NCBI GenBank assembly: GCA_965248265.1
Contig: CBDFJF010000002.1
Span: 2,513,214-2,577,213 of the forward strand
DNA length: 64,000 bases
Reading direction: 5' to 3'
Source: Candidatus Latescibacterota bacterium
GTDB taxonomy: Bacteria; Latescibacterota; UBA2968; UBA8231
Position numbers and translations under genes: made by a program. The notes beneath the pieces are model-generated. The model ran no database searches. It was not told the DNA's origin and was given only the letters and a program-made list of their open reading frames with translations. Below, in pieces: positions 1,268-29,210 of this stretch. Position 1 is the stretch's first letter. Every line of letters begins with the position of its first letter.

Positions 1268-1692
1268 TTTCTGCCGTAGACAGTTCTGTAATACTGGATG
1301 TCGTCACGGATGATCCAGATTTCGCGCAGGGGTCGGAGCGCGTTCTCCGCAAGGCAGCGGCTGAGGGACAGTTGGTCGTATGCGAGTGTGTTCTCGCGGA
1401 AGTCTTCCCAGCTTTTGGCAATGAATCATCATTCGAGGAATTTCTCACCGATTGGCAGTTGGAGTTCGTCCCCTCATCTAGAGAAAGCGCTGTGCTGGCA
1501 GGCAATCACTTCACCGTGTACCTGGAGCGGGGAGGCCGGCACGGTCGAGTCGTGGCAGACTTCCTGATCGGTGGGCATGCTGGCATTCATGCTGACAGGC
1601 TTGTAGTCAGAGATCGGGGATACCTGCGTGATTATTTCTCCGATCTTGTTATGTTGGATCCTCGACAGACCCTGGATTCGATGGGCGAATGA
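1264..1692 (+). CDS. vapC: PIN-domain ribonuclease toxin, VapC-type
   Basis: 142 aa. N-terminal acidic motif AVDSSVILDV, a conserved distal ADFLIGGHA block, and a 4-nt overlap with the upstream antitoxin gene. Confidence 0.85.
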   Translation: MISAVDSSVILDVVTDDPDFAQGSERVLRKAAAEGQLVVCECVLAEVFPAFGNESSFEEFLTDWQLEFVPSSRESAVLAGNHFTVYLERGGRHGRVVADFLIGGHAGIHADRLVVRDRGYLRDYFSDLVMLDPRQTLDSMGE

Positions 1693-1736
1693 GCCCAGCA
1701 GGGAATCGAAAGCACCGGTAACCCAGTGGAGACACC

Positions 1737-3281
1737 GTGATTCTCTTTCAACATGGCACCGTCATCGACGGATCAGGACAACCGGCGAAGCAGGCGTCGG
1801 TCCTTGTTCGCGATCAGCAGATAGATTCGGTCGGGGACATCGAAGCATCACCCGAGATGGAGGTCGTCGACTGTTCCGGCCTGGTTATCGCGCCGGGTTT
1901 CATCGACGTGCACAGCCATGCCGATCTCGAGGTCCTCGAGCACCGGCCCGAGAAGGTTATGCAGGGGGTGACGACGGAGGTCGTCGGCAATTGTGGTTTT
2001 TCCGTTTTCCCGAAGGTGCCTCTCACCGGGCTCGCACCCGTGTTCGATATCGTCTTCGCCGGGCGCGGTGACCGGGAATGGGAGGACGCCGGTTCGTACT
2101 TCGAAGACGTTGAGGGAGTGCAAACGCGCACCAATGTCGCCGCTCTCACCGGACACTCCAGTCTCCGGGCCGGAGTCACCGGCATGAAGGCGGGAAGCCT
2201 CCAGGGTGATGATCTGCGCGAAGTGGAGAAACGGCTGAGGGCGTGTCTCGAACAAGGTTCGATCGGGATGTCCACGGGCTTGAACGAGGTGCCCAGCAGC
2301 TACGGTGATTTCGACGAGCTGGTTGGTCTGTGCCGCATCGTCCATGAGCACGGCGCCCTCTACACCAGTCACCTGAGAGACTACAAATTCCAGTTTGTCG
2401 AGGCGGTGCAGGAGGCACTCGATCTGGGTCGCGCCTCCGGAGTGCCTGTCCAGCTCTCCCATCTGCAGGCCGCGGGGCGCAAGAACTGGGACAAGATGGA
2501 TCCGGTGTTGGAGCTGATCGACAAGGCTCACAGCGAGGGAGTCGACGTCGGTATCGATGCCTACCCCTATGTGGCCGGCTCGTGCAATATCACGCAGCTG
2601 TTACCCATCTGGTGCATGGAAGGGGGTACGGAGCAGCTGATGTCGAGGTTACGGGATCCGGAAAGCCGGGCGCGGATCGCCGAGGAGACCGACAGCGGGA
2701 TGTCCAATGTCTGGGCGGACATCATGCTGGCAACCCTGGACAATCCGGACCAACAGGCCATCATCGGCACCACGGTGCAGGATGTGGCGGATGAGCGAGG
2801 ATGTGCCGCGGTTGAAGCAGCCCTCGACCTGCTGATCGAGAACGAGTGCGGCATCATGATCATTTCATTCAATCAGTCTGATGAAAATCTGCGCAAGGTG
2901 TTGACGCATCCACTGACCTCGATCATCACGGATGGCCTCGTGACCGAGGGCAAACCCCACCCGCGAACCTTTGGGACGTATCCGACCTTTCTCGGGGAAT
3001 ACGTGCGCGACAAGGGCTGGATGTCATTGGAAGACGCCGTGCGTAAGGTGAGTGCGCTGCCGGCGGCGCGCTTCGGTCTGGAAGGCAGGGGATTGCTGCA
3101 ACCCGGATGCCACGCAGACCTCATCGTGTTCTCGGCGGACGGGATCGGCACGCGCGGCGACTACGTGGAGCCAGAGCACACCCCAGATGGGATCGAGCAC
3201 GTGCTCATCAATGGCGCCTGGGCGATACGGAAGGGTCGCTTCGATCAGGCAATTTGTTCGGGGCAGCCGCTGAGAGTCTGA
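1737..3281 (+). CDS. N-acyl-D-amino-acid deacylase (D-aminoacylase) family amidohydrolase
   Basis: 514 aa with GTG start after a GGAG SD. GLVIAPGFIDVHSHADLE is the metal-binding HxH motif. The overall pattern matches the D-aminoacylase subfamily (…LSHLQAAG…, …DAYPYVAGS…, …ITDGL…). Confidence 0.85.
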   Translation: MILFQHGTVIDGSGQPAKQASVLVRDQQIDSVGDIEASPEMEVVDCSGLVIAPGFIDVHSHADLEVLEHRPEKVMQGVTTEVVGNCGFSVFPKVPLTGLAPVFDIVFAGRGDREWEDAGSYFEDVEGVQTRTNVAALTGHSSLRAGVTGMKAGSLQGDDLREVEKRLRACLEQGSIGMSTGLNEVPSSYGDFDELVGLCRIVHEHGALYTSHLRDYKFQFVEAVQEALDLGRASGVPVQLSHLQAAGRKNWDKMDPVLELIDKAHSEGVDVGIDAYPYVAGSCNITQLLPIWCMEGGTEQLMSRLRDPESRARIAEETDSGMSNVWADIMLATLDNPDQQAIIGTTVQDVADERGCAAVEAALDLLIENECGIMIISFNQSDENLRKVLTHPLTSIITDGLVTEGKPHPRTFGTYPTFLGEYVRDKGWMSLEDAVRKVSALPAARFGLEGRGLLQPGCHADLIVFSADGIGTRGDYVEPEHTPDGIEHVLINGAWAIRKGRFDQAICSGQPLRV

Positions 3282-3288
3282 AGTGGGG
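3105..3288. repeat. Direct repeat copy 1 (3' end of the deacylase gene plus 7 nt)
   Basis: Recurs at 4625-4806 in the same orientation at about 90% identity by eye. Shared strings include CACGC(A/C)GACCTCATCGTG and GATCGAGCACGTGCTCATCAATGGCGCCTGGGCGATACGG…GGGCAGCCGCTGAGAGTCTGAAGTGGG. Confidence 0.85.
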
Positions 3289-3311
3289 ATCCGGGTGGCA
3301 ATGGTGAAGCG

Positions 3312-4109
3312 ATGAGCGACCTGGAACTGCAGAAATACCTGTTTGACCTCAACGGCTATATCGTTATCCAGAATGCGTTGGGTGCCGATGAACTGACGTT
3401 GCTGAACGAGATATTCGATCGTCAGGAGCGGCCGAGGGACTCCGTCATGATGTCCTACGGGGGTGGTTCCATTACCGGTCCCGGAGTCCTTGCGTATGGG
3501 CAGCCATTTGTCGATCTCCTTGACCATCCGGCGATCCTGCCCGTGTTGCGGTTTCGTCTGGGAGACTGTTTCCGTCTCGATCGACTGTACGCCATCGCGA
3601 TGAGTCGTGGCATGTCGAAGGGTGTGATGCATTCGGATTACGGCGCATCGTCGCCGATTGCCGGCTCAGCGCCGGGTGAATACTATCCGTTTCCGCTGAA
3701 CGAGATTCACAGCGGCTTCACGGTGGTCTCCTGGAATCTCACTGACTCCGGACCCGACGTCGGGGGGTTCAGCTGCATCCCCGGCAGCCACAAAAGCAAT
3801 TACAGATTGCCGCAGCAGCTGGCGGACGCGGGTGACGAGTCGCCGCACGCCACTATCCCGCACGCGCCCGCAGGTTCCGTTACACTGTTCACGGAAGCGA
3901 TTACACACAGTACATCGGCCTGGCACGGAGGACACGAGCGTCGCAATCTGCTCTACAAGTACTGCGTGTCGCAGATGGCCTGGGGCAGCAGCCGCGTACA
4001 AGCGCCCGACGACTGCGCGCTGACACCGCGCCAGGAAAGGCTGCTGTCAGAGCCTGCCGAACCCTACCGATTTTTTCCCTCCCTGTTCGAAGAAGAGCCA
4101 ACGTCGTGA
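3312..4109 (+). CDS. PhyH family Fe(II)/2OG oxygenase
   Basis: 265 aa. N-terminal LNGYIVIQNAL motif, HxD as MHSD, the GGFSCIPGSHKS loop and distal His in ITHSTSAW. Confidence 0.8.
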   Translation: MSDLELQKYLFDLNGYIVIQNALGADELTLLNEIFDRQERPRDSVMMSYGGGSITGPGVLAYGQPFVDLLDHPAILPVLRFRLGDCFRLDRLYAIAMSRGMSKGVMHSDYGASSPIAGSAPGEYYPFPLNEIHSGFTVVSWNLTDSGPDVGGFSCIPGSHKSNYRLPQQLADAGDESPHATIPHAPAGSVTLFTEAITHSTSAWHGGHERRNLLYKYCVSQMAWGSSRVQAPDDCALTPRQERLLSEPAEPYRFFPSLFEEEPTS

Positions 4110-4591
4110 TGCAGCTTGCGCAGATCGCGGAGCAGGTCGGAGCGCTGCTCAAAGAGCGCACAGAGACTGTGGCAGTTGCGGAATCATCAGCCGGCGGCGT
4201 CATATCGGCAGCGTTGCTCGCCGTTGCCGGAGCCTCCGCCTACTTCAAGGGCGGTGGTGTGGTGTACACCGGCGAGGCAAAGCAGACGCTGATGGCGATG
4301 ACGGACGAAGCCATGGCGGAGGCGCGTGCAGCCACCCAGAGCCATGCCCTGCACCTGGCCCGCGCCGCGCGCATTCGCCTCGGTACGGACTGGGGGATTG
4401 GCGAAACCGGGGCGGCGGGGCCCACCGGCAATCGTTACGGCGATTCGCCAGGGCACACCTGTATCGCCGTGTCGGGACCGCGCGAGAAAACCGTGACCAT
4501 CGAGACCGGCAACGACGGTCGCGAGCAAAACATGTGGGCCTTCGCGGGTGCGGCTCTAGATCTGCTCGGCGAATGTATTCGCTGCGAATGA
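4106..4591 (+). CDS. CinA-family protein (PncC-like nicotinamide-nucleotide amidohydrolase domain)
   Basis: 161 aa. VAVAESSAGGVISAALL corresponds to the CinA C-terminal domain AES(C/S)TGG motif. ATGA overlap with the upstream PhyH gene. Confidence 0.8.
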   Translation: MMQLAQIAEQVGALLKERTETVAVAESSAGGVISAALLAVAGASAYFKGGGVVYTGEAKQTLMAMTDEAMAEARAATQSHALHLARAARIRLGTDWGIGETGAAGPTGNRYGDSPGHTCIAVSGPREKTVTIETGNDGREQNMWAFAGAALDLLGECIRCE

Positions 4592-4624
4592 AGCTCGCCC
4601 CCGCCCCATCCTTGAGGATGTTGC

Positions 4625-4799
4625 GATGCCACGCCGACCTCATCGTGCTCTCGGCAGAGGGATTGGCACGCGCGGCGATTACGTGGAGCAGGAGCACACT
4701 CCCGATGGGATCGAGCACGTGCTCATCAATGGCGCCTGGGCGATACGGCAGGGTCGCTTTGATCAGGCAATTTGCTCGGGGCAGCCGCTGAGAGTCTGA
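4625..4799 (+). pseudogene. Decayed 3' fragment of a D-aminoacylase paralog (direct repeat copy 2, repeat extends to 4806)
   Basis: Reads CHADLIVLSAEG, then a 1-nt deletion relative to copy 1 (GGGATC versus GGATT near 4655), then DYVEQEHTPDGIEHVLINGAWAIRQGRFDQAICSGQPLRV* in the shifted frame. Copy 1 reads …DYVEPEHTPDGIEHVLINGAWAIRKGRFDQAICSGQPLRV*. No 5' part of the gene is present. Confidence 0.75.
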
Positions 4800-4811
4800 A
4801 GTGGGAGAGTC

Positions 4812-6749
4812 CTACTGAAACGGTACCGGTATACCGTTGCCATGCCACGGGAACGCGTATGATGGGTCGTTCAAGAAACGCTGCATGCCGGCGCCGATGC
4901 GGATGGAGGTCGATGGGGGTAGTTCAACGGTGAGGTGCTTGCCCCCTACGGTCATCGTCTGCGTCGTTTCGCCATCCTGGTGCTGAACATCGGTGAAATT
5001 GTGCTCGCCGAAGGCGCCGGCCTGGACGATGACGGTGCGAGATTCGGTCGCGCTCAGGTTTACCAGCTGCAAGCCAACTCGATTTCCCTTTATCTCGTCA
5101 ACCAGGGCGGCCACGTCTGAGGGCACTCCCGGGCGCCCGTTTTCGGGGTCGAAGTAACGGACGGTGGCGCGCAGCAAGCCGCCGTGATAGACGGACTGTG
5201 GGGCACCCAGCATGACGTTGGTCAGCACGTTGGTGTGCACGGGGTTCGGCGGCACGCGATTGTCGGCGATGATCTCGGCTGCCGTGCGGCCGTCGTCGCA
5301 GGTATCGCGATACACTTTCAGGGCGCTCTCCAGTTCCGCCTGCAGAATGGCGACGGGCCAGTCTGGATTCTGGCCCTCGTAGTACTGGAAGCGCGGGTAC
5401 TCGGGCGTCCAATGGTAGATATCCGGTCCCTCCACCTTGTTGTCATTCCAGTCGAAGCTGACATCCCCCTCCCGTACCCACATCAACAACTCGTGATCTT
5501 CATCTGATAGAGAAGCGTGGTAGAGGTGGGCGAGCTCGTTCATGCGCACCGGCTGGTCGCGGCCTGTCACCGGGTTCCACATCTTGTGTCCCCAGCCGTT
5601 GGCATCGTGACGGACCGCCTGCAGAAACTGGCCGTCCTCGCGGGTGATGCCGTTGTCGATGAGGACCTTAATCTGAGAGCGCAGCAGGTCGAGGTAGCCG
5701 AAGTCGCCGGTCAGCAGCTGGGCGCATTCGGCGGCGATGGTCAGTGAGTGGAAGAGGATGTTGAAGCCGCAGTAGCTACTCCAGCCATACATGGCACCCC
5801 ACCAGCAGCCATCGCGATGCTCGCCGATCTTTCCGGTCGGTCCGACGTTGTCGGGGATGACGCCGTTGTTCTGCTGGATGCGTTCCATCCAGGCATCCGT
5901 GTACTCGACAACCCAGTCCTTGTAGCGCGAGTCACCAGTGTAGAGGTAGGCGTTGGTAAGCAGGCCAGTGGCGCCCAGGTTGTTGGGGGTGTCGGCGTTG
6001 AGGACGATGTGATCGAAGAGGCCGACAATCTCCTCGCGGCGTTTGTCGTCCTTCCACCAATCAGGTTCAAGGTCCGGCACAATCGGGTAGAGGGATGAGC
6101 GGGTGCCGTAGTAGTTGACCTTGCCGTCGAAATCTGCGGGGCCGTACAGGAAGGCGTGGGTCTTTTGCGCGCTCGCCTTGTGCCACGGTCCCTGACCGGT
6201 CTGCATCGGCGAGCGTAGCACCTTGTAGCGCGGGTCGTAATTGGGTGCCGCCGGGTCTTCGCCCGTGTAGAAGGAGGCGAACAGTTTCGAGCGCCGCACG
6301 TTCTCCGAGATTGTCGGATCGGCCAGCCCCAGGTGGTAAAAAGCCATGTTGCCCTCGCCCTTGTGATGCCACTCGGCATCGCCCGGGTGGACCAGGCCAT
6401 AGTACTCCCTGTGAACGGAGGGGGTAAATCTGTCGTGGACGCGACTGACGATGCTGTCGTCACCATAGCGGGTCACGGCGTTCCAGTGCGCGAGGGTCAG
6501 ATCAAGAATGCGCTCGCTGGCTCCCATCGAATAGAACAGACCCCAGTTGTAAATCATCTCCCACAGATCATCGACATCATCGGAGTAGTAGGGCACGCCA
6601 CCGCGCTCAGAGTACTTGCTCGCCTTGAGCTCGACAGACTGCTCCATGACTTCAATCAGTTGACGCTCGAGGAGGGCCCACGCCGGCGGCGCGGATTGGC
6701 TGGTTGCTCTGACTGTGGGGAAGTCGATCTCGATGGCCCGGCTGCGCAT
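4812..6749 (-). CDS. Uncharacterised conserved ~650-aa protein, paralog 1 of 3 (family A); all-alpha region plus C-terminal beta-sandwich-like tail suggests a glycan-active fold
   Basis: 645 aa. Collinear with 14142-16088 (about 60% identity by eye) and 12120-14123 (about 45%). Shared blocks: PP(A/G/E)WA(L/V)…RQLI, GDAEWHHKGEGNMAFY, ADPTISENVRR, NYDP…RVLRSP, NAYLYTGD.KYK.WV.EY…WMERI.QNNGVIPDNVGPTGK(I/V)GEHRDG.WWG, and the C-terminal GIQLVNL…PSYAFPWHG. I recognise no named family. Confidence 0.85.
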   Translation of the reverse strand: MRSRAIEIDFPTVRATSQSAPPAWALLERQLIEVMEQSVELKASKYSERGGVPYYSDDVDDLWEMIYNWGLFYSMGASERILDLTLAHWNAVTRYGDDSIVSRVHDRFTPSVHREYYGLVHPGDAEWHHKGEGNMAFYHLGLADPTISENVRRSKLFASFYTGEDPAAPNYDPRYKVLRSPMQTGQGPWHKASAQKTHAFLYGPADFDGKVNYYGTRSSLYPIVPDLEPDWWKDDKRREEIVGLFDHIVLNADTPNNLGATGLLTNAYLYTGDSRYKDWVVEYTDAWMERIQQNNGVIPDNVGPTGKIGEHRDGCWWGAMYGWSSYCGFNILFHSLTIAAECAQLLTGDFGYLDLLRSQIKVLIDNGITREDGQFLQAVRHDANGWGHKMWNPVTGRDQPVRMNELAHLYHASLSDEDHELLMWVREGDVSFDWNDNKVEGPDIYHWTPEYPRFQYYEGQNPDWPVAILQAELESALKVYRDTCDDGRTAAEIIADNRVPPNPVHTNVLTNVMLGAPQSVYHGGLLRATVRYFDPENGRPGVPSDVAALVDEIKGNRVGLQLVNLSATESRTVIVQAGAFGEHNFTDVQHQDGETTQTMTVGGKHLTVELPPSTSIRIGAGMQRFLNDPSYAFPWHGNGIPVPFQ

Positions 6750-6797
6750 GCTGTATCTCCTAACTTCGACGCCAGCGCGGTGGCGCGGTCAGTTGAA

Positions 6798-7574
6798 TCA
6801 GGCGTTGCGGGCGTACTGCAAGCCGAGATCAGGGAGATCCTTCACCATTTCCCTGATGCAGGTGAACTCGCTGTTCAAGAAGGTCTCGTGGGGCTGAAAC
6901 ACCTTCGGACTGTATAGCTGAAGCGTGCGCAGGTGTTGTGCAGTGGTTGGTCTGGCGGCGAACTTGAAGGCGAGAAATCGTCGGCCTTTCCTGCCTCCAT
7001 GCAGGCCGTGCCACAGGTACTGGTTGAAGAGGACGACATCACCGGGTTCAGTCTCGACGGGGTAGGCCGGAATCTCCGCTTCCACTACGCCAAATGGATT
7101 ATCCGCAGCCCTGGATTCCTGTGGACTAAGGGCCTGGTGGAAATGCTGCCGGTGTGAGCCGAGGATGAAGCGGATGCATCCCGTGTCGACGGTCAGCTTC
7201 TCAAGGTACATCATAACCTTGATCCGCGGGTAGTCGACCCAATCGCGCTCCCACTTCTCGCCGTCGAGCTGGTAATAACGGCGGTCGGCATGCCACTGGC
7301 TCTTGGTGTACTCGGAAACAACACCCTCTGAGCCGACGAATATGTAGCCACTTCCGAGCAGCTTCGATATCGGGTCGTGAATACGATCGTCCGCGGCAAG
7401 CCGGGTCAGGCAGGCATTGCGTTCGGCGAAGTACCCACCCGATTCACTGCCCGTTTCCTCCCAGACCGTCTCGGCGGATCGTGTTATCTCCTCCATCTCT
7501 TCGGGGGTGAACGCTTGTCGCAGACACAGGAAACCGAAGGTGTCGAAGTGGGCGATCTGTTCTTGCTCGATCAT
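6798..7574 (-). CDS. PhyH family Fe(II)/2OG oxygenase
   Basis: 258 aa. FDTFGFLCLRQAF N-terminus, HxD as QWHADR, the CIRFILGSHRQ loop and distal His in YLWHGLHGG. Confidence 0.8.
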   Translation of the reverse strand: MIEQEQIAHFDTFGFLCLRQAFTPEEMEEITRSAETVWEETGSESGGYFAERNACLTRLAADDRIHDPISKLLGSGYIFVGSEGVVSEYTKSQWHADRRYYQLDGEKWERDWVDYPRIKVMMYLEKLTVDTGCIRFILGSHRQHFHQALSPQESRAADNPFGVVEAEIPAYPVETEPGDVVLFNQYLWHGLHGGRKGRRFLAFKFAARPTTAQHLRTLQLYSPKVFQPHETFLNSEFTCIREMVKDLPDLGLQYARNA

Positions 7575-7586
7575 GGCTGAGATCGT

Positions 7587-9134
7587 CTACGAAGGCGGCG
7601 GTATCTTGAGCGGGTCCAGGGATTCGGGACGGTCGCATTCGGTGTAGCGCATGTGGACCTCGACTCCCGTTAGCGTGCGGGCAAAGCCGGCCGTTTTCTC
7701 CTTGCGGACGATTTCAATCTCGAGGGTGTTGTCGCCTTGCACAACATCGTTCACGCCGAGTGTCCAACGCATCCAGTAGGTTCCGCGTCTGGGTTCGTAA
7801 GTGACCTTGCGATCGATGAGGAGGTTGTTGCCGTTGAATGCGATCGTCACCTCGTCCTCGACGCAGAACGATTGAAAAGTCAGTGTCAATATGGGGTTTC
7901 GCAGCTCGTCGTCGGCTTTGGCACCATCGATCTCATCGCCGATGACGATCGGTACGGTCTCCTTCGCCCCCTCCTGAAGCACCAGCGGAAGCTGGCGGCC
8001 GTCTGGTTTGGCGTAACTGGGCAGATCTTCCCGCGGCGGCAGGAAGTAGCGCTTGTCGTGACGTAGTGCCGCTTCGGGGTTGGACATCTCGCGAAGGAGA
8101 CGATACTCGGCATCGGCGAAGGGCCAGGGCAGGTAGCCGAGGTAGATGCCGGCAAAGCCGTGCCAGTGCGCCGTCTGCCTGAAGGCGCGGAACATCTCGA
8201 TGTTGGCGATGCTGGCGCGGGTGTCGTCCAGTTTTCGGTTGGGGCGCAGGTAGGCGGAAACGCCAGCGGCATTGGCGGCATCGGCCAGCCATTTGCCACC
8301 GTGGGCGCCGGTGTCGAGGAGCATGTTGGGAACCTGGCCAACGACGTAGTCGATGTCGCCGGCGGCGATCCAGGCTTCGACGTCGAGGCCGATGCTCAGG
8401 TTTTCCTCGCGGCGGTGCCAGACTCTGGCCTGGACTGGAATTGTACGCGATTGGAGCTCACCGATCTCCGTGGCAAGCGCCTTCACCTCAGCCACGAATC
8501 CGTTCATCACCGGTATACAGGCTTCCGTTTCGTTCTGCCGGAAGTAGAGTGGGAAGAACATGAAGTCGAGTTCGATTCCATCCGCTTCATAGTCCACGAG
8601 CACTTCGCGAATCAGACTCAGCTTCTCGGCGCGAACAACCTCGTTGGCATAGTCATAACACCATTCGGTCTTATGGTTGGCGAATCGGTCGTCACCGCTG
8701 CCAAGCGTAACCTCTTTGCCCTGGTGCCACTTCAACCAACCGCACCGTTCCCCGCCCTGCTCCGTCGGGTCCTGCAGCTTGAGACTGGGGAAGACCCTGA
8801 TTCCAGCCGCGCGGCCGTGTTTGATCACCTCGCGCAGCTGGTCGGTACCCATGGCCGCAGCGTCTTTGACGTTGCGCATAATGCGCCAGTTGATGAAGCC
8901 GCCGAAGACTTCCTGCTCCTGGCCGATGATGCGGCCAATCTTGGTCTGATGGAAGTAGACGTCGGCGAAGCCGAGGCCGAAGCTGAGCTGATCGACGCCG
9001 GTGCCCGAGAGCTCATCGATCGGCCAGCGCATCTTGTGCAGGTTCAGTGGGGGATCGAGACGCTTGAAATGGAAGTGGTGGGCGTCGCTGTAGTAGATGA
9101 GCCGGGGAGGTGGGGGCGTGCCGTGGGTAGCCAT
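7587..9134 (-). CDS. TIM-barrel glycoside-hydrolase-like protein (GHL10/DUF187-like), family B paralog
   Basis: 515 aa. Shares an architecture with 27642-29210, 59042-60601, 54758-56383 and 21446-23197: N-terminal RLIYYSD block, GIRVFPSLKLQD, W.YDYANEVVRAEKLSLIREVLVDYEADGIELDF (compare HPEW…PEVR…DGVELDW) and a C-terminal beta-sandwich. The family name is from memory of PF02638-type motifs, not a search. Confidence 0.55.
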   Translation of the reverse strand: MATHGTPPPPRLIYYSDAHHFHFKRLDPPLNLHKMRWPIDELSGTGVDQLSFGLGFADVYFHQTKIGRIIGQEQEVFGGFINWRIMRNVKDAAAMGTDQLREVIKHGRAAGIRVFPSLKLQDPTEQGGERCGWLKWHQGKEVTLGSGDDRFANHKTEWCYDYANEVVRAEKLSLIREVLVDYEADGIELDFMFFPLYFRQNETEACIPVMNGFVAEVKALATEIGELQSRTIPVQARVWHRREENLSIGLDVEAWIAAGDIDYVVGQVPNMLLDTGAHGGKWLADAANAAGVSAYLRPNRKLDDTRASIANIEMFRAFRQTAHWHGFAGIYLGYLPWPFADAEYRLLREMSNPEAALRHDKRYFLPPREDLPSYAKPDGRQLPLVLQEGAKETVPIVIGDEIDGAKADDELRNPILTLTFQSFCVEDEVTIAFNGNNLLIDRKVTYEPRRGTYWMRWTLGVNDVVQGDNTLEIEIVRKEKTAGFARTLTGVEVHMRYTECDRPESLDPLKIPPPS

Positions 9135-24259: not shown

Positions 24260-26938
24260 CTATGTCTGACTCGCTGAGGCTTCTGGGGTCGCGTCGGATT
24301 CGGCGTGTGGCGGCAGCAGTATGGTCAACGTAGTCCCCACGCCTGGCGTTGATTCGAGCTCGAGTCGTCCCGAGCATTGCTCGATGATGCTCCGACAGAT
24401 CGAGAGTCCAAGACCAGTGCCTTTGTCCGGATCCTTGGTCGTGAAGAACGGCTCCCAGATACGCTCATGGAGTTCCTCTGGAATGCCGGCGCCATTGTCA
24501 GTCACACTGATACTGACGTGTCCATCATTGAAGTCGGTGCGGATCTCGATGCGGGCTCCGTCCATCTCCGGTCCCATGCCCAACAGCGAATCCCTCGCGT
24601 TGACGAGCAGATTGAGGATGACCTCCTCCAGCGAGTAGGGATTGACGTTCACGGACGGAAGTTCGTTGCCGTTGGTGACGTTCAGCTCTATGCCCTGTGA
24701 TTTGAGCTGGGACCCAAGCAGGCCGATGCTTGACTGGACTATGTCGTTGACATCGGCAATTCCCGTATCCGGCCTTCCAGCCTGGCGGGCGAACAGCCGA
24801 ACGTGGTCGATGATGTGGACCATGCGATCGGCCTGATCGATGATCGACTGTTGCCGTGCCACCAGCTTATCCCCATCGAGATCCCAGCCTTTCTCCAGGC
24901 CGATCAGTGTGAGCTCGGCGTAGCCTCTTATGCCCGTGAGTGGCTGATTCAGTTCGTGAGCGATACCTGCCGCCATTTCGCCCAACGATCTCAAGCGGTC
25001 AGCGCGCATGCTGAGGACCTTCTGCTCTTCAAGCTCGACCTCGGCACTCATACGGTTGTGCTCGGCTTCCACGCGCGAAGTCACGTCGACGATGGAGCCG
25101 ACGATCTCGGACGGGTTGCCGTGTTCATCGCGCACTAGAAAGGTCTCGTCCCTGACCCAGCGGTACTCTCCATCTCCGCCTTGAATGCGATACTCCTGCG
25201 CCAGCTGACCCGAGCGCAGCACGCGCGACTGCTCGCCCATGACCCGGGGCAGGTCTTCCATGTGGATGCGCCACTTGAGGAAATTCGGGTTGGACAGAAA
25301 GGTCGAGACTTCCAGACCCAACAGAGGCTCGACGCTGGCTGACACGAAGGAGAAGCCGAAGGGTTGATCCAGCGGCCGGCTGTAGAGGACGGCAGGACTG
25401 CTTCTCAACAGATGCTGCAAACGTTCCTCGACTTCCATCAAGGCACGTGTTTCCTGTTTCCAGTGGCTGATATCGCGCGTCACGAGGCACACGATGCTCT
25501 CGCCCCGGTATTCGATCGTGTAGGCATCAATCTCAGCATCTAGGGCGGGGCCGGTCGTCGAGCGCAGGCGATGTTGCCCGGTATATGGCCGGTCAGCGTC
25601 CGCGGCAGCAAACAGATCCTGCAGTTCTTCGCCGACAGCAAAGATGGACTCAACCCGGATATTCCGGTGCTCGGGAGACGCGATATTTAGCTGCGAGACG
25701 AGCGAGGCGTTCATTTCGACGACGGCATGCGAGCGCGGGTCGAAGAACAGGATGCCTTCGGTACTCTTCTCAAGAATGGCGCGGTAGCGCGCATCGCGCA
25801 CCCGCAACGATTCCAGAGTCGCTCGCCGAAAGCGCCGGCGAACGCCGGAATAAATCAGCATCAAGACAACGGTTCCGGCCCCGATGCCACCAGCCCATCG
25901 AAGGGCGAGGGCGTTCTCTTTTTTCGAGTTGGCGATGTCGGTCGCGTCGCCGAACCATCGGGGATCCCCAATCGGCGTATGGTCTTCGCCCAACCAGAGA
26001 CATGGCGACTCTGGTAACAGGGAGAAGTCATCACTTTCCGAGTCGAAAAAACGTGGATCGGCCTTCAGGCAGTTCAGGCAGCGGGCCCCCTCAACGTGCT
26101 GGTGCTTTTTGGAATCGAAAATACAGGAGTTGAGAACGGATAGATGGTCGGTGCCGCCGACCACCTCGCCTCTGATGGTCGATAGAATGACCCCGGACAC
26201 GAGTGCGTCCGTCACATCTTTCAGGACGATGCCCTCACCAGCCTCGTGGATAGTGATGTCGGAAATTCGAACGGAAATCGGTTCGTCCTTCTGAGTGACT
26301 TGGATCGCCGTGTCGATGTCGTGAAAGGTGCTGTTGGATACCAGCAGGTTGCGAATCATGTCCCCGGAACCGAAGCCCAGGGCGCGACGACCGATATCAT
26401 GGAACTGGGAATTGTGTACCTCGCACCATGCGAAGGTTACCCCAACATCGCCTGAGATCGCATCCCCAGCGATGTTGCGGAACTGGCAATTTTCGACAAT
26501 CAGTGTGTTGGGCTGACGAGCCTGGGAGTAGATCGCGTACTCAGCCCCCTTGGCCCCATCGAAGGTGATGCCCTGCACCCGCAGATCGGAGTAAACCCGC
26601 AGCAGTACAGATTCCGCGGTCAAGATGGGTGGAGACTTGAGATCCGGTGCGGCGAGAAAGGTCAGCGGGACATCTGGCAGGGTGACCGTCGTGCTCTCTT
26701 CATAGCGTCCGCTGGCGGCGAATCGAACGCTGTCGCGCGCGGCCAACAGAGGCAGCAAGGCGTGGATTCGGTCGCGACCGGGGTGAATGTCGTGCGTGCG
26801 AGCCGAGGCGCCCGACGCGGTCAGCATCGCGATCAGGCACACCAGAAAACAGATGAAAGCTCTTGAATGAGCGGCGTCAGACAGAGTTACCCACCCTCGT
26901 TCTGGTCGATCTCTGTTTTGATTCGCGTTTTCTGCCAT
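24260..26938 (-). CDS. Sensor histidine kinase: signal peptide, periplasmic right-handed beta-helix (PbH1/CASH-like) domain, TM, two PAS-like regions, HisKA, HATPase_c
   Basis: Beta-helix repeats: VQGITFDG…, IVENCQFRNIAGDAISGD, CEVHNSQFHDIGRRALGF, LVSNSTFHDIDTAIQV, ISDITIHEAGEGIVL. TM helix: LRWAGGIGAGTVVLMLIYSGV. H-box: GEMAAGIAHELNQPLTGI. G-boxes: DNGAGI / GTGLGLS. Probable start is ATG 26938 (MAENANQ…, giving signal peptide AFICFLVCLIAMLTASGASA). The track ORF extends to 26989, and either start overlaps the upstream gene. Confidence 0.85.
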   Translation of the reverse strand: MAENANQNRDRPERGWVTLSDAAHSRAFICFLVCLIAMLTASGASARTHDIHPGRDRIHALLPLLAARDSVRFAASGRYEESTTVTLPDVPLTFLAAPDLKSPPILTAESVLLRVYSDLRVQGITFDGAKGAEYAIYSQARQPNTLIVENCQFRNIAGDAISGDVGVTFAWCEVHNSQFHDIGRRALGFGSGDMIRNLLVSNSTFHDIDTAIQVTQKDEPISVRISDITIHEAGEGIVLKDVTDALVSGVILSTIRGEVVGGTDHLSVLNSCIFDSKKHQHVEGARCLNCLKADPRFFDSESDDFSLLPESPCLWLGEDHTPIGDPRWFGDATDIANSKKENALALRWAGGIGAGTVVLMLIYSGVRRRFRRATLESLRVRDARYRAILEKSTEGILFFDPRSHAVVEMNASLVSQLNIASPEHRNIRVESIFAVGEELQDLFAAADADRPYTGQHRLRSTTGPALDAEIDAYTIEYRGESIVCLVTRDISHWKQETRALMEVEERLQHLLRSSPAVLYSRPLDQPFGFSFVSASVEPLLGLEVSTFLSNPNFLKWRIHMEDLPRVMGEQSRVLRSGQLAQEYRIQGGDGEYRWVRDETFLVRDEHGNPSEIVGSIVDVTSRVEAEHNRMSAEVELEEQKVLSMRADRLRSLGEMAAGIAHELNQPLTGIRGYAELTLIGLEKGWDLDGDKLVARQQSIIDQADRMVHIIDHVRLFARQAGRPDTGIADVNDIVQSSIGLLGSQLKSQGIELNVTNGNELPSVNVNPYSLEEVILNLLVNARDSLLGMGPEMDGARIEIRTDFNDGHVSISVTDNGAGIPEELHERIWEPFFTTKDPDKGTGLGLSICRSIIEQCSGRLELESTPGVGTTLTILLPPHAESDATPEASASQT

Positions 26939-27627
26939 TCGTAGTCGACTTCGCCGTCGTAGAAGACCTCCGGCGCCTCGATAGCCCAACCCTGTTTGCG
27001 GATGAGCCAGTTTTCTGGGTCAAGGGAGACGCCCTCTTGTAACGCCTGCAAGGCAGCCTGCGGCTTGCCTTCGTCGAGGTAGCCGACTGCGCGCTGCAGG
27101 CAGGCGTCGGATTGTCGCTCCTCCGGTGTAATCAGCTCTGCGGCTGCCGGTTCACTCGCCTCGTTCCATGAATCCGGCCGACTGCCCGTTGAAGCCCAAT
27201 TCTCCAACTCGCTTCGGAACGTCGAATCACCGATATCGACCATACTGACAGGTCGGGCGAGTTGTCCATCGGCATCGATGACAATACCGACGGGAACATA
27301 CTTCACGCCGAATGCCTTGCCGACCACGTTGCCCCTGTCCACTAAAGACGGAAAGGTCGCCATGGCTTTTTCGAGCCAGGGCTTGGCATAGTCCTCACCT
27401 TGAGCGTCTTGAGCGATCGAGATTACGTTGCAGTTTTCGCCGTTCTTATTGAAGAATGACTGCCATCCAGGCAGTTGCGATCGGCAGCGTCACCACGAGG
27501 CCCACATGTAGAGGACCGTTCGCCTGCCGAGAAAGTCCCGAGGTCCCAAGGATCGGTCGGAACCGATTTCGGGCAAGGTGAATTCTGGTAGTTCGCGGCG
27601 GGTGTCATTGGTACCTTTGCTGGTCAT
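26887..27627 (-). CDS. TlpA/ResA/redoxin-like thiol:disulfide oxidoreductase with a C-terminal TPR-like extension; in-frame TGA (27492-27490) at the catalytic position, so a candidate selenocysteine (alternatively a nonsense pseudogene)
   Basis: Own translation from ATG 27627: MTSKGTNDTRRELPEFTLPEIGSDRSLGPRDFLGRRTVLYMWASW-TGA-RCRSQLPGWQSFFNKNGENCNVISIAQDAQGEDYAKPWLEKAMATFPSLVDRGNVVGKAFGVKYVPVGIVIDADGQL…. It is in frame with track ORF 26887-27363. It matches the redoxin pattern …FWA(S/T)WC..CR..(M/L)P…, and a GAGGAGAG SD lies upstream. Confidence 0.55.
27459..27475 (-). promoter_or_regulatory. Candidate bacterial SECIS-like hairpin ACUGCC-UGGAU-GGCAGU, 14 nt downstream of the in-frame UGA
   Basis: Perfect 6-bp stem with a 5-nt apical loop containing GG. 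The loop starts about 20 nt after the UGA, within the UGA-to-loop spacing reported for bSECIS elements. Not verified with a SECIS model. Confidence 0.35.
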
Positions 27628-27641
27628 CGATAAACTCTCCT

Positions 27642-29210
27642 CTACTCTCCGTAGGCTATCCAGAATTCGACGTTCTCAATGCCCAGCGGCGGACGGATTC
27701 GGGCGTCGCGCTTGACGAGAACGACCTTGACTTCGTGGCCGCCCGGTGAAATCTGTGCCGCTTCAAGGTCCCACACCAGCCAGCTGTTCTCGTCGACGTC
27801 GGCCGGGTTGTTGGGATTCTCCGCGGTCTGATTGCGGATCGCGGGGGGACCCAGCGGCGTGCCATCCAGGGTCACCGCTACTTCGTCTCCGGTGGGCGAG
27901 AAGTGTGCCATTTCGAGCAATAACTGCAGGCTGCTGGCTTTCCCCGGATCCGCGTCGTGGGTGGAAATGTGGAAGGTCGGGCCGTCAGCAGTCAACGTCC
28001 GATGGAGGTCGACGGGGACCTCACCATAGATGCGATCATCCCGTTCGGAGTCCAGGCGCAGCGGGTTGGTGCCGATGCTTCGGTAAATGGCGGTATAGGC
28101 CTTGTCTTGATCCTTCAGCGTTTCAGTTGACCCAATCGTCGAAAGAGAATGACGCCGAGTCGTAGCATTTGCATGCCAGTTGAAGATGTAGATGCCGTGG
28201 GCGCCACGATCGAAGTGGCCCTGCGCCATGCCGGCGAACCAGCGATCGCGCCACCGAGTATGTGGGATCAGTCGATTGGCCAGCTGTCGTGAGTCGAAGT
28301 CCAGACCGGGATACACCTGGATGTCGGTGCCTTCTACAAGGCGGAGAAATTCCTCGGTCTCGAAACAGGGGTCCGTTCCGGAATTGCCGCCACCAATGAT
28401 GATGTCGCACAAGCCCTCTTTGACCCAGGTCTCTAGGTCGTAGCCGATACGACGGCATGATTCCAGGGTCGCAGCCACCCGTACGGCGACGGGGAAGGGG
28501 CGGCCGCGTTCTTCGGCCAGTCGATTGGTCATCTGGCGCACGGCCCGCTGCAGATCGGTGAGGGCGTAACGCAGCCGGTACTCGTGGTTGCCGGGCAGGT
28601 GAAAGGCATGACGTTGCCAGTCGAGTTCGACGCCGTCCCAGTCCGTCAGGCGACAGGCCTGCTCGATGAGGTCCAGCTTGTGTTCGCGAACCTCCGGAAT
28701 GGCCATGTTCCATGAGGTCGCGCACCACCCCGGTGCCTGGTCGCCGAGGCACCATTCGGGGTGCTGTTTGCGCAGATCCGTCATCTCATGTTCGTCGGAC
28801 TTCTGCATGGCTTCCAGATCCTGGATGGTCCAGAAGTGCTGGTCGTTCATGCGGATGGATGGCCACGCATCGATGCCGAGCTCGCGTCCGCGCGCTACCA
28901 TCGCGCCGTATAGATCCTCGCCGCGTTCCAGCAAGGCGCGGATGTTCTCCGTATCCCGCATGGCCAGGACACTGTCGTAGATCCTGCCGACTGAATCGCC
29001 CTTTACCGGTAGATTCCCTGACAACCACGTTGCTTCGTGGATGCCCATGCACCAGAACAGGGCGTCTACCTGGGTGTCGGCGAGGGGGGCGTAGACCTTT
29101 TCCAGGAACTGCTCTACGGTCTGGGGGTATTCGTCGTAGTGGTGAGGGGCACCATCCCAGTTATAGATGATTCGGTATGGGGATTGAGCCATGGTGGTCA
29201 CTCCTCGCAC
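27642..29210 (-). CDS. TIM-barrel glycoside-hydrolase-like protein (GHL10/DUF187-like), family B paralog
   Basis: 522 aa. YRIIYNWDGAPHHY…QVDALFWCMG, GIDAWPSIRMNDQHFW, HPEWCLGD…WNMAIPEVREHKLDLIEQACRLTDWDGVELDWQRH, then a C-terminal beta-sandwich. Closest to 59042-60601. Confidence 0.6.
   Translation of the reverse strand: MRGVTTMAQSPYRIIYNWDGAPHHYDEYPQTVEQFLEKVYAPLADTQVDALFWCMGIHEATWLSGNLPVKGDSVGRIYDSVLAMRDTENIRALLERGEDLYGAMVARGRELGIDAWPSIRMNDQHFWTIQDLEAMQKSDEHEMTDLRKQHPEWCLGDQAPGWCATSWNMAIPEVREHKLDLIEQACRLTDWDGVELDWQRHAFHLPGNHEYRLRYALTDLQRAVRQMTNRLAEERGRPFPVAVRVAATLESCRRIGYDLETWVKEGLCDIIIGGGNSGTDPCFETEEFLRLVEGTDIQVYPGLDFDSRQLANRLIPHTRWRDRWFAGMAQGHFDRGAHGIYIFNWHANATTRRHSLSTIGSTETLKDQDKAYTAIYRSIGTNPLRLDSERDDRIYGEVPVDLHRTLTADGPTFHISTHDADPGKASSLQLLLEMAHFSPTGDEVAVTLDGTPLGPPAIRNQTAENPNNPADVDENSWLVWDLEAAQISPGGHEVKVVLVKRDARIRPPLGIENVEFWIAYGE

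What the first reader, a model, noticed from the sequence alone, without database searches (positions are those of the whole stretch)
26887..27627. In-frame TGA at the catalytic position of a TlpA/redoxin-like gene, followed by a SECIS-like hairpin: candidate selenoprotein hidden by the ORF track
Reading the minus strand from ATG 27627 gives MTSKGTNDTRRELPEFTLPEIGSDRSLGPRDFLGRRTVLYMWASW-TGA-RCRSQLPGWQSFFNKNGENCNVISIAQDAQGEDYAKPWLEKAMATFPSLVDRGN…. That ATG has a GAGGAGAG SD and lies directly after the stop of 27642-29210. The reading continues in the same frame into track ORF 26887-27363, so the 158-aa ORF is only the tail of a 246-codon gene.

Both sides of the TGA fit the thioredoxin-fold redoxin template (…P.F.LP...G…L.DF.G+.V.L.FWA(S/T)W-C-xx-C-R..(M/L)P…V.(I/V)…D…). 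The TGA (27492-27490) occupies the position of the first catalytic Cys. Fourteen nt downstream is a perfect hairpin ACUGCC-UGGAU-GGCAGU (27475-27459) with G residues in a small apical loop about 20 nt from the UGA. That geometry matches the one described for bacterial SECIS elements.

TGA is a normal stop elsewhere in the window, which excludes genome-wide recoding. A frameshift is excluded because the frame is unchanged across the TGA.

Caveats: the motif is U-R-C (one residue between Sec and Cys) rather than UxxC. No sel genes or tRNA-Sec are in the window. A simple nonsense pseudogene remains possible.
Basis: partly seen in the sequence, partly recalled or inferred. Interest (0 to 1): 0.7.

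Follow-up and report, generated by a model that had tools for sequence, protein, structure and literature searches.

The report
Hidden selenocysteine redoxin gene, known family
The in-frame TGA is almost certainly a real selenocysteine codon in a thioredoxin-fold redox gene that gene callers cut in two, but the gene belongs to a selenoprotein family that is already catalogued, so it corrects an annotation and does not reveal a new kind of system.

Summary
On the minus strand, ATG 27627 opens a 246-codon frame. It passes an in-frame TGA (27492-27490) and ends at TAA 26889-26887. An AhpC-TSA/Redoxin domain spans the TGA. Of 49 homologous loci fetched from at least six phyla, 48 carry TGA in the same column, in the motif WASW-U-x-C-R-x-QLPGWQ. 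The roughly 45 upstream codons are conserved, with more synonymous than non-synonymous changes. Full-length Cys forms (CGC, CTC, CRC and others) exist. The hairpin 27475-27459 is present in 48 of 49 TGA-bearing sequences (weakened by one A·A mismatch in L036). Its variable positions change only by synonymous, compensatory substitutions. It meets the published bacterial SECIS model. In 25 related genomes the gene sits beside tRNA-Sec, with selD and/or selA-selB also adjacent in 24 of them.

The family is known. [quoted passage not shown] NCBIfam NF041054 (WAxxUGC) is the best model hit, but at 121 bits it is below the 300-bit cut-off.

The window copy is a short form with no signal peptide and reads U-R-C. 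Whether this genome has Sec machinery could not be tested. My verdict is a real selenoprotein gene and a new member of a known kind, of modest interest.

The parts
26887..27627 (-). Complete selenoprotein gene: 246 codons (Sec at codon 46) plus the TAA stop. It is a short form with no signal peptide.
   Evidence: The start MTS is conserved in orthologs L050-L056, while the sequence upstream of it diverges.
27635..27641 (-). Shine-Dalgarno-like AGGAGAG, 7 nt before the ATG and directly after the TAG stop of the upstream ORF.
   Evidence: Read directly from the sequence.
27490..27492 (-). Sec-encoding UGA (codon 46). It aligns with the first, nucleophilic Cys of the CxxC motif of ResA/TlpA proteins.
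   Evidence: TGA in the same column in 48 of 49 homolog loci; Cys forms; alignment to the ResA motif WGTWCKpC.
27484..27486 (-). TGC codon for Cys48, the likely resolving Cys of the U-x-C redox pair.
   Evidence: Invariant TGY in all 49 sequences. It aligns with the second Cys of the ResA CxxC, with a one-residue gap.
27459..27475 (-). SECIS-type hairpin inside the coding sequence. Stem 27475-27470 pairs with 27464-27459. The loop UGGAU is at 27469-27465. It encodes part of QLPGWQS.
   Evidence: fold; core MFE -9.7 kcal/mol. Searches show the stem is kept in 48 of 49 sequences. The pair C-G/U-A changed on both sides at least twice. Loop positions 1 and 4 are always complementary, with at least 7 independent double changes. 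The hairpin fits the bSECIS model quoted.
27256..27597 (-). Thioredoxin-fold redoxin domain (residues 11-124).
   Evidence: Pfam PF00578 and PF08534. PDB sequence hits to ResA, StoA and TlpA. A model of homolog P0081 superposes on DsbE and ResA with TM about 0.8.
26908..27150 (-). C-terminal all-helical (TPR-like) domain, residues about 160-240. It contains the near-invariant motif LDPxNWLIRKQxWAxExPxxFYxGxVDYxWQK (residues about 201-233, 26929-27027).
   Evidence: Weak TPR hits at residues 174-206. Invariant columns are listed. The model shows helices 160-241.
26887..27363 (-). The 158-aa ORF that an ORF finder reports (P0001). It is only the tail of the gene.
   Evidence: In orthologs the gene callers split the gene into a 47-aa ORF and a 153-aa ORF.

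Best explanation
The region 26887-27627 (minus strand) is one gene for a selenocysteine-containing thiol-disulfide oxidoreductase of the ResA/TlpA type.

Decoding (inferred from the established bacterial mechanism): during translation, the UGA at codon 46 is read as Sec. The hairpin 14 nt downstream acts as a bacterial SECIS. It binds SelB·GTP·Sec-tRNA(Sec) and delivers it to the ribosome when UGA is in the A site.

Product: the protein has a thioredoxin fold. Sec46 takes the place of the attacking Cys of the CxxC motif. Cys48 is the resolving residue, one position closer than usual (U-x-C). The catalytic cycle is therefore expected to run through a selenenylsulfide.

Other features: a conserved C-terminal helical, TPR-like domain probably binds a partner or substrate. 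The window copy lacks a signal peptide, so it is probably cytoplasmic, whereas most relatives are exported.

Shown: one continuous gene, the conserved TGA, Cys forms, the conserved and covarying hairpin, the fold, and linkage to sel genes in relatives.

Inferred: actual Sec insertion in this organism, the selenenylsulfide chemistry, and the substrate.
For: - The domain spans the TGA.
- 80 of 81 database homologs are N-terminally truncated ORFs that start after the TGA column.
- 48 of 49 fetched homolog loci from Latescibacterota, Gemmatimonadetes, Planctomycetota/Phycisphaerae, Acidobacteriota, Actinomycetota and Dehalococcoidia have TGA in the same column, within WASW-U-x-C-R-x-QLPGWQ.
- There is purifying selection on both sides of the TGA.
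- Cys forms with C-x-C exist.
- Hairpin covariation comes from synonymous sites only. The one homolog without TGA (L041, Ser) has lost the stem.
- The hairpin meets all four constraints of the published bSECIS model.
- tRNA-Sec lies 25-1300 nt downstream in 25 loci, confirmed by Rfam RF01852 at 73 bits.
- selD, selA and selB are adjacent in relatives.
- The best NCBIfam hit is the curated selenoprotein family NF041054, WAxxUGC.
- The family is listed in the literature.
Against: - No selA, selB, selD or tRNA-Sec lies in the 64-kb window, and the rest of the genome could not be read. Sec decoding in this organism is therefore inferred.
- The hairpin on its own is not statistically unusual.
- Part of the hairpin sequence encodes a protein motif (LPxW) that is also kept in some Cys forms.
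- No Rfam SECIS family matches.
- The NF041054 score of 121 bits is far below its 300-bit cut-off.
- There is no experimental evidence of any kind.
Confidence: 0.88

Rival explanations
1. Nonsense pseudogene, or a relic selenoprotein gene in a genome that has lost the Sec machinery. Translation stops at codon 46 and the rest of the gene is dead.
For: No sel genes or tRNA-Sec were found in the window. A contig-length match for SelD found nothing.
Against: Four distinct close orthologs (window, L050, L054, L056; 81-85% amino-acid identity) all keep the TGA, the U-R-C motif, the hairpin and intact frames. Synonymous changes exceed non-synonymous changes on both sides of the TGA. The same TGA is kept across at least six phyla. 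A dead gene would accumulate frameshifts and further stops. One relative, L036, does look degraded, which shows what decay looks like in this family.
Confidence: 0.05
2. Two separate products. A 45-residue leader peptide ends at the TGA, and an independent protein starts at ATG 27363 or another internal start.
For: Gene callers annotate it this way in the window and in orthologs.
Against: One thioredoxin-fold domain spans the TGA (residues 11-124). The internal ORF would lack strand 1, the active site and helix 1. The internal start positions differ between homologs. The 43 codons between the TGA and ATG 27363 are conserved as protein.
Confidence: 0.03
3. UGA is read as a standard amino acid (Trp, Cys or Gly), either by suppression or under an alternative genetic code, and not as Sec.
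For: Two database entries (P0081, P0117) show Trp at this site.
Against: The Trp in P0081 is an artefact of gene calling with another code. Its contig L049 has TGA at the site and does not translate to P0081 under table 11. TGA is the commonest ordinary stop in the window, and it ends this same gene in many homologs. Physical linkage to tRNA-Sec, selA, selB and selD in 25 relatives and the SECIS-type hairpin point to Sec.
Confidence: 0.03
4. A sequencing or assembly error turned TGC or TGT into TGA.
For: None that is specific. Cys forms of the family do exist.
Against: The same TGA appears in 48 independently assembled loci, several of them complete chromosomes, and in four close orthologs from different samples.
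Confidence: 0.01

Closest known systems
NCBIfam NF041054 'ResA-like WAxxUGC motif-containing protein' (WAxxUGC_long)
   Same: This is the best-scoring curated model for the window protein and for six tested homologs. It shares the WAxxU-x-C active-site motif on a ResA-like fold. It also matches the C-terminal region, as a second matched stretch, or as a single stretch covering model positions 25-325 of 354 in L045.
   Different: The window protein scores 121 bits and the homologs 110-151 bits, against a cut-off of 300. The model is 354 positions long and includes an N-terminal domain of about 80 residues that the window protein lacks. The window has Arg, not Gly, between Sec and Cys.
[quoted passage not shown]
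   Same: It shares the Pfam PF00578 hit, the U-G-C redox motif (most of my 48 homologs are U-G-C) and environmental, uncultured sources.
   Different: I could not compare sequences with the papers' example accessions (MDE0950781.1, MBL6689828.1). Identity of the families therefore rests on the domain, the motif and the NCBIfam hit. The papers I read give no function, no C-terminal domain and no gene context.
ResA / TlpA / StoA / DsbE extracytoplasmic thiol-disulfide oxidoreductases (CxxC)
   Same: They share the fold: Foldseek TM about 0.8 over about 136 residues to 3gl3, 1st9, 4nmu and 3erw, and sequence E-values of 5e-10 to 1e-4. The surrounding motif is also shared, W-x-x-W-[C/U]...C-[R/K]-x-[E/Q]-x-P.
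   Different: Sec replaces the first Cys. One residue is deleted between the two redox residues (UxC, not CxxC). There is an added C-terminal helical domain. The window copy has no signal peptide or membrane anchor.
Consensus bacterial SECIS model (bSECISearch; summarised in PMC13188914, Fig. 2A)
   Same: The hairpin has a 5-6 bp upper stem and a 5-nt apical loop with G at loop position 2 followed by G (or U in 3 homologs). There are 20 nt between the UGA and the loop, within the allowed 16-37. The MFE is -9.7 kcal/mol, below the -7.5 limit.
   Different: The covarying loop pair (positions 1 and 4) encloses only GG or GU and leaves a 3' U unpaired. This is close to, but not identical with, the published loop pattern N1-G-[G/U]-N-N2. 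No Rfam SECIS model matches.
Eukaryotic Selenof (Sep15), thioredoxin-like with a C-x-U motif (from my own knowledge, not tested here)
   Same: It has a thioredoxin-like fold with Sec and Cys separated by a single residue.
   Different: The order is reversed (CxU against UxC). It is a eukaryotic ER protein, is unrelated in sequence and has a different SECIS type.

Membership tests
Bacterial selenoprotein gene | An in-frame UGA conserved at the same column in orthologs, with coding conservation on both sides. | tested here: met
   48 of 49 loci have TGA in the same column. Synonymous changes exceed non-synonymous changes upstream and downstream.
Bacterial selenoprotein gene | Homologs with Cys aligned to the UGA position. 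| tested here: met
   P0100 (CGC), P0113 (CTC), P0107 (CQC), P0124 (CYC), P0134 (CHC), P0176 (CRC) and P0129 (CIC).
Bacterial selenoprotein gene | [quoted passage not shown] | tested here: met
   The window hairpin has a 6-bp stem, the loop UGGAU, 20 nt spacing and an MFE of -9.7 kcal/mol. It is conserved with compensatory changes.
Bacterial selenoprotein gene | selA, selB, selC and selD present in the same genome. | not testable with these tools
   None is in the window, and the rest of the 4.14-Mb contig cannot be read. The feature is met in relatives: selC lies next to the gene in 25 loci, and selA-selB and/or selD lie adjacent.
Bacterial selenoprotein gene | Physical demonstration of Sec in the protein by 75Se labelling or mass spectrometry. 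| not testable with these tools
   This requires an experiment.
NCBIfam NF041054 WAxxUGC_long (equivalog) | HMM score at or above the curated 300-bit cut-off. | tested here: not met
   The window protein scores 121.2 bits. Homologs L003, L004, L001, L039, L042 and L045 score 110-151 bits.
NCBIfam NF041054 WAxxUGC_long (equivalog) | The literal WAxxUGC motif. | tested here: not met
   The window has WASW-U-R-C. Among homologs the middle residue is G (most), R, T or A. The spacing and the flanking residues are met.
UGC-containing Prx-like / TlpA-like selenoprotein family (literature) | A PF00578/cd02966-type domain with Sec and Cys separated by one residue. | tested here: met
   PF00578 E 4.4e-12 and the U-x-C motif. 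The family is described.
ResA/TlpA CxxC thiol-disulfide oxidoreductases | A thioredoxin fold with the central insertion typical of TlpA-like proteins. | tested here: met
   Tested on a model of homolog P0081 (pLDDT 81.8), which superposes on DsbE, ResA and StoA. The window sequence hits ResA, StoA and TlpA chains.
ResA/TlpA CxxC thiol-disulfide oxidoreductases | A CxxC active site. | tested here: not met
   The active site is U-x-C, one residue shorter (alignment).
ResA/TlpA CxxC thiol-disulfide oxidoreductases | An N-terminal signal peptide or membrane anchor (extracytoplasmic location). | tested here: not met
   The window N-terminus MTSKGTNDTRRELPEF has no hydrophobic stretch (by inspection). 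Medium and long homologs do have one.
Peroxiredoxin (AhpC/TSA proper) | The PxxxTxxC peroxidatic-Cys motif. | tested here: not met
   The sequence before Sec is YMWASW, with no Thr or Ser at -3 and no Pro at -7. The motif is of the TlpA type (WxxW-C).

The most novel reading that the evidence does not exclude
The U-x-C redoxin may not be a general redox enzyme. It may be an accessory component of the selenium/Sec pathway, for example handling or reducing selenium for SelD.

In Latescibacterota and Gemmatimonadetes MAGs its gene is embedded in the sel operon. The order is selA-selB-redoxin-selD-selC in L003, L021 and L037. It is selA-selB-redoxin-selC in six others. In L004 the redoxin stop overlaps the start of selD (ATGA), and that SelD is itself a selenoprotein.

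The window copy would then be a dispersed, cytoplasmic paralogue or orthologue. I did not find this linkage mentioned in the papers I could read.
Probability: 0.15. Interest if true: 0.6.

Novelty: new member of a known kind. Interest (0 to 1): 0.3.

Why it matters
In practice this is an annotation fix. Standard ORF callers split or truncate the gene here and in essentially all of the roughly 80 database homologs, so the catalytic half of the protein is missing from public protein sets. The case also gives a clean, covariation-supported SECIS for this family. The variable positions of the hairpin are all synonymous sites of QLPGWQ. That could seed a covariance model to recover the family automatically.

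Biologically, it adds a short, apparently cytoplasmic U-R-C form to a catalogued selenoprotein family whose function is unknown. The frequent embedding of the family inside sel operons in relatives suggests a testable link to selenium metabolism. None of this changes what is known about Sec decoding.

Tried and rejected
- Rfam gathering scan of the whole window and a permissive scan of 27380-27540 found no SECIS or tRNA family. Rfam's bacterial SECIS models are specific to particular genes and clades, so this says little.
- The look-up of encoding contigs for the window's own ORF (P0001) returned no record, so the source contig could not be identified.
- I tried to find this genome's SelD by matching the 4,141,828-bp contig length among SelD homologs. 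Only the best 120 of at least 7,974 hits were listed and none matched, so the result is inconclusive.
- tblastn with SelA, SelB, SelD and MsrP from relatives against the window gave no hits.
- A scan of the window for other ORF pairs split by TGA gave about 100 mechanical candidates. Only this gene has a redox-type context.
I modelled homolog P0081 instead.
- The ARAGORN 'tRNA-Ala' of 91 nt at 61549-61639 was considered as a possible odd tRNA-Sec. I rejected it: the anticodon is GGC and there is no Rfam hit even at E <= 1.
- A search of the literature for 'WAxxUGC' found nothing. The Haft & Tolstoy 2025 paper is not held.
- A frameshift was rejected because the frame is the same on both sides of the TGA.
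Full report
**1. The observation**

- ATG is at 27627-27625.
- AGGAGAG (27641-27635) lies 7 nt upstream of the ATG and directly after the TAG stop (27644-27642) of ORF 27642-29210.
- The frame runs 45 codons to an in-frame TGA at 27492-27490, then CGC and TGC (Cys48, 27486-27484).
- It continues through the reported 158-aa ORF (26887-27363) to TAA at 26889-26887, which makes 246 codons.
- The hairpin ACUGCC-UGGAU-GGCAGU is at 27475-27459. It starts 14 nt after the TGA, and 20 nt separate the TGA from the loop.
- Pfam AhpC-TSA (E 4.4e-12, residues 11-124) and Redoxin span the TGA, so the TGA interrupts a single domain.
- TGA ends 24 of the 48 ORFs of 250 codons or more in the window, so the code is standard.

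The hairpin by itself is not statistically special. The window has 58 perfect hairpins with a 6-bp stem and 5-nt loop, and the local fold has a z-score of -0.95. The weight of evidence has to come from comparison with relatives.

**2. Comparative evidence for a conserved UGA**

A search of 5.8 billion predicted proteins with the read-through product gave 81 hits. Eighty of them are 141-195 aa and start after the TGA column. This is the usual signature of a selenoprotein family that gene callers truncate. The one 'full-length' hit, P0081, shows Trp at the site. Its contig (L049) has TGA there and does not translate to P0081 under table 11, so the Trp is an artefact of gene calling with another code.

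A scan of GTDB species-representative genomes returned 48 loci. By record title they come from Latescibacterota (the majority), Gemmatimonadetes, Planctomycetota/Phycisphaerae, Acidobacteriota, Actinomycetota, Dehalococcoidia and unclassified 'bacterium' MAGs. With L049 that makes 49 loci.
- 48 of the 49 have TGA in exactly the same column, within [MW]ASW-U-[G/R/T/A]-C-R-x-QLPGWQ.
- The upstream segment is recognisably conserved (PPxFxLPD...G...).
- The single exception, L041, has Ser at the site.

Four close orthologs (L050-L056, 81-85% identical) keep the MTS start, the U-R-C motif and the gene order (516-aa unknown protein, redoxin, PAS histidine kinase). Gene callers split the gene there into a 47-aa ORF and a 153-aa ORF. 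Against these orthologs, the 34 codons upstream of the TGA show 10 synonymous versus 3 non-synonymous differences (L054) and 8 versus 2 (L056). The ratios downstream are similar. Both sides are therefore under protein-level selection in one frame.

A HMMER scan of 1.84 billion representative proteins found full-length Cys forms with C-x-C at the same two positions and the same C-terminal domain:
- P0100: WASW-CGC-RNDLPAWQ
- P0113: CTC
- P0107: CQC
- P0124: CYC
- P0134: CHC
- P0176: CRC
- P0129: CIC

A few forms lack the redox pair (DSC, SGS).

**3. The hairpin**

I aligned the 49 TGA-bearing sequences without gaps (A2).
- RNAalifold recovers the 5-bp stem CUGCC/GGCAG.
- The outer variable pair is C-G in 34 sequences and U-A in 15. 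It is never half-changed. It is made of the first base of the Leu codon (CUG/UUG) and the third base of the Gln codon (CAG/CAA), so both changes are synonymous.
- The third positions of the Pro and Gly (or Val) codons, which are loop positions 1 and 4, are always Watson-Crick complementary: U-A 31, C-G 16 and A-U 2 (distinct-row counts).
- On a neighbour-joining tree built from the rest of the protein, parsimony needs at least 2 independent double changes for the stem pair and at least 7 for the loop pair. No intermediate state is observed. Two control third positions show 13 unordered combinations.
- In the count of structure pairs, 95.9% of cells are paired, against 26-78% when the partner is slid. 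None of 500 shuffles reaches the observed covariation.
- The two central loop bases are GG (46 sequences) or GU (3).
- L041, which lacks the TGA, has lost the stem (CUGCU...GGCAA).
- L036 has an A·A mismatch together with WASR and an internal deletion, so it looks decayed.

The window hairpin meets the four constraints of the published bacterial SECIS model (PMC13188914):

| Constraint | Model | Window hairpin |
|---|---|---|
| Upper stem | 4-16 bp | 6 bp |
| Apical loop | 3-9 nt | 5 nt |
| G in first two loop positions | followed by G or U | position 2, followed by G |
| UGA-to-loop spacing | 16-37 nt | 20 nt |
| MFE | -7.5 kcal/mol or lower | -9.7 kcal/mol |

One caveat applies. LPxW is also a protein motif, corresponding to the C-[R/K]-x-E-x-P motif of ResA/TlpA, and it is kept in some Cys forms. 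Sequence conservation alone would therefore not prove an RNA element. The synonymous covariation does.

**4. Link to the Sec machinery**

ARAGORN finds a 98-nt tRNA-Sec (anticodon UCA) on the same strand, 25-1300 nt downstream of the gene, in 25 of the 48 genome loci. Rfam RF01852 confirms it in L004 at 73.3 bits. Across those 25 loci the surrounding gene order takes three forms.

| Loci | Gene order |
|---|---|
| 18 loci | selD (TIGR00476, 349 bits) lies between the redoxin and selC |
| L011, L013, L022, L026, L031, L036 | selA (TIGR00474, 571 bits) - selB (TIGR00475, 368 bits) - redoxin - selC |
| L003, L021, L037 | selA - selB - redoxin - selD - selC |

These genomes therefore encode the full machinery right next to the gene. 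The window has none of these genes. I could not reach the rest of its 4.14-Mb contig. Sec competence of this particular organism is thus inferred from the intact, selected state of the gene in it and in its close relatives.

**5. What the protein is**

phmmer against PDB sequences hits ResA, StoA, TlpA, DsbE-like proteins and tryparedoxins (E 5e-10 to 1e-3). In the alignments, Sec46 falls on the first Cys of CxxC and Cys48 on the second, with a one-residue gap (WASWCr.Crsqlp against WGTWCKpCEKEMP).

An AlphaFold model of homolog P0081 (pLDDT 81.8, pTM 0.72) shows a thioredoxin fold followed by an all-helical C-terminal domain, residues about 160-241. Foldseek places the N-terminal domain with DsbE, ResA, StoA and TlpA-like structures, with TM about 0.7-0.83 on the target. 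The Sec position lies in the short loop between strand 29-35 and the first helix, like the attacking Cys of thioredoxins.

The C-terminal domain carries a near-invariant motif, LDPxNWLIRKQxWAxExPxxFYxGxVDYxWQK. Only weak TPR hits describe it.

Three architectures exist:
- Long forms of about 370-390 aa have a signal peptide and an N-terminal domain containing VCRxDLCIPL.
- Medium forms of about 276 aa have a signal peptide.
- Short forms of about 246 aa have neither. These are the window, L001, L002, L019, L043/L044 and L049.

The most likely mechanism is a thiol/selenol-disulfide exchange cycle through a Sec46-Cys48 selenenylsulfide. This rests on the known chemistry of CxxC and Sec oxidoreductases. 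The substrate is unknown.

**6. Comparison with what is known**

NCBIfam holds a curated selenoprotein model, NF041054 'ResA-like WAxxUGC motif-containing protein'. It is the top hit for the window protein (121 bits) and for six diverse homologs (110-151 bits). All are below its 300-bit equivalog cut-off.

The literature lists the family under three names:
- 'Prx-like (UGC-containing)': pfam00578, motif UGC, 46 Sec sequences in the GOS data (PMC2398784).
- 'UGC-containing Prx-like protein' (PMC9312934).

The kind is therefore known and catalogued, but its function is uncharacterised. The window gene is an unannotated member with three departures. It is a short form without an N-terminal domain or signal peptide. 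It has Arg instead of Gly between Sec and Cys. Its locus is away from the sel genes. It fails the literal tests for the NF041054 equivalog (score and UGC motif). It meets the broader definition of the family: a PF00578/TlpA-like domain with U-x-C.

**7. Verdict**

Rival readings are each contradicted by the comparative data: pseudogene, two genes, a non-Sec reading of UGA, and sequencing error. The only untested link is the Sec machinery of this genome.

Novelty: a new member of a known kind. Interest is modest at 0.3. The finding is a solid annotation correction with a well-supported SECIS. The one less expected side observation is that relatives carry this gene inside their sel operons.

Noticed in passing
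L003, L021, L037 (about 1400-8000); L011 2061-6967; L013 2142-6800; also L022, L026, L031, L036: In these MAGs the redoxin selenoprotein gene is embedded in the sel operon. The order is selA-selB-redoxin-selD-selC, or selA-selB-redoxin-selC. In the L004 clade (14 loci) the order is msrP ... redoxin-selD-selC. I did not find this linkage mentioned in the papers I could read.
   Followed up: partly
L004 6696-7745 (TGA at 6750-6752); L003 6758 onward: SelD in these loci is itself a selenoprotein: MKWRNRAKRLTQLVSCGG-TGA-ASKL. The called ORF starts after the TGA. In L004 the redoxin stop and the selD start overlap as ATGA, which suggests translational coupling.
   Followed up: partly
window 61549-61639 (-): ARAGORN calls a 91-nt 'tRNA-Ala (GGC), anticodon at position 32'. 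Rfam finds nothing there even at E <= 1. A similar 92-nt 'tRNA-Pro' call falls inside the redoxin gene of L012. Both look like false positives.
   Followed up: yes
L041 about 6109-6160; L036 about 6091-6700: L041 (Acidobacteriota) is the only homolog without TGA. It has Ser-Leu-Cys at the site and has lost the hairpin stem. L036 keeps the TGA but has WASR, an A·A mismatch in the stem, QLPGWK and an internal deletion. It is probably a decaying copy or a poor assembly, although it lies next to selA-selB and selC.
   Followed up: partly
L049 787-789 (P0081); P0117: Public protein sets contain 'full-length' versions of this family with Trp at the Sec site. For P0081 this is because its Logan contig was gene-called with a code that reads TGA as Trp; P0117 probably arose the same way but its DNA was not checked. 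This is an annotation artefact that could mislead motif analyses.
   Followed up: yes
L003 5593-6096, L011 5542-6096, L039 5557-6129 (N-terminal extensions): Long forms carry a signal peptide plus an N-terminal domain of about 120 residues with a conserved Cys pair (VCRxDLCIPL). NF041054 covers part of this domain. Its function is unknown.
   Followed up: no
window 26887-26989: The downstream PAS/HisKA/HATPase sensor kinase ORF (24260-26989, TTG start) overlaps the end of the redoxin gene by about 100 nt as listed. In orthologs the called kinase start overlaps by 52 nt. The pairing of redoxin and kinase is conserved in L050-L054 and L001.
   Followed up: no
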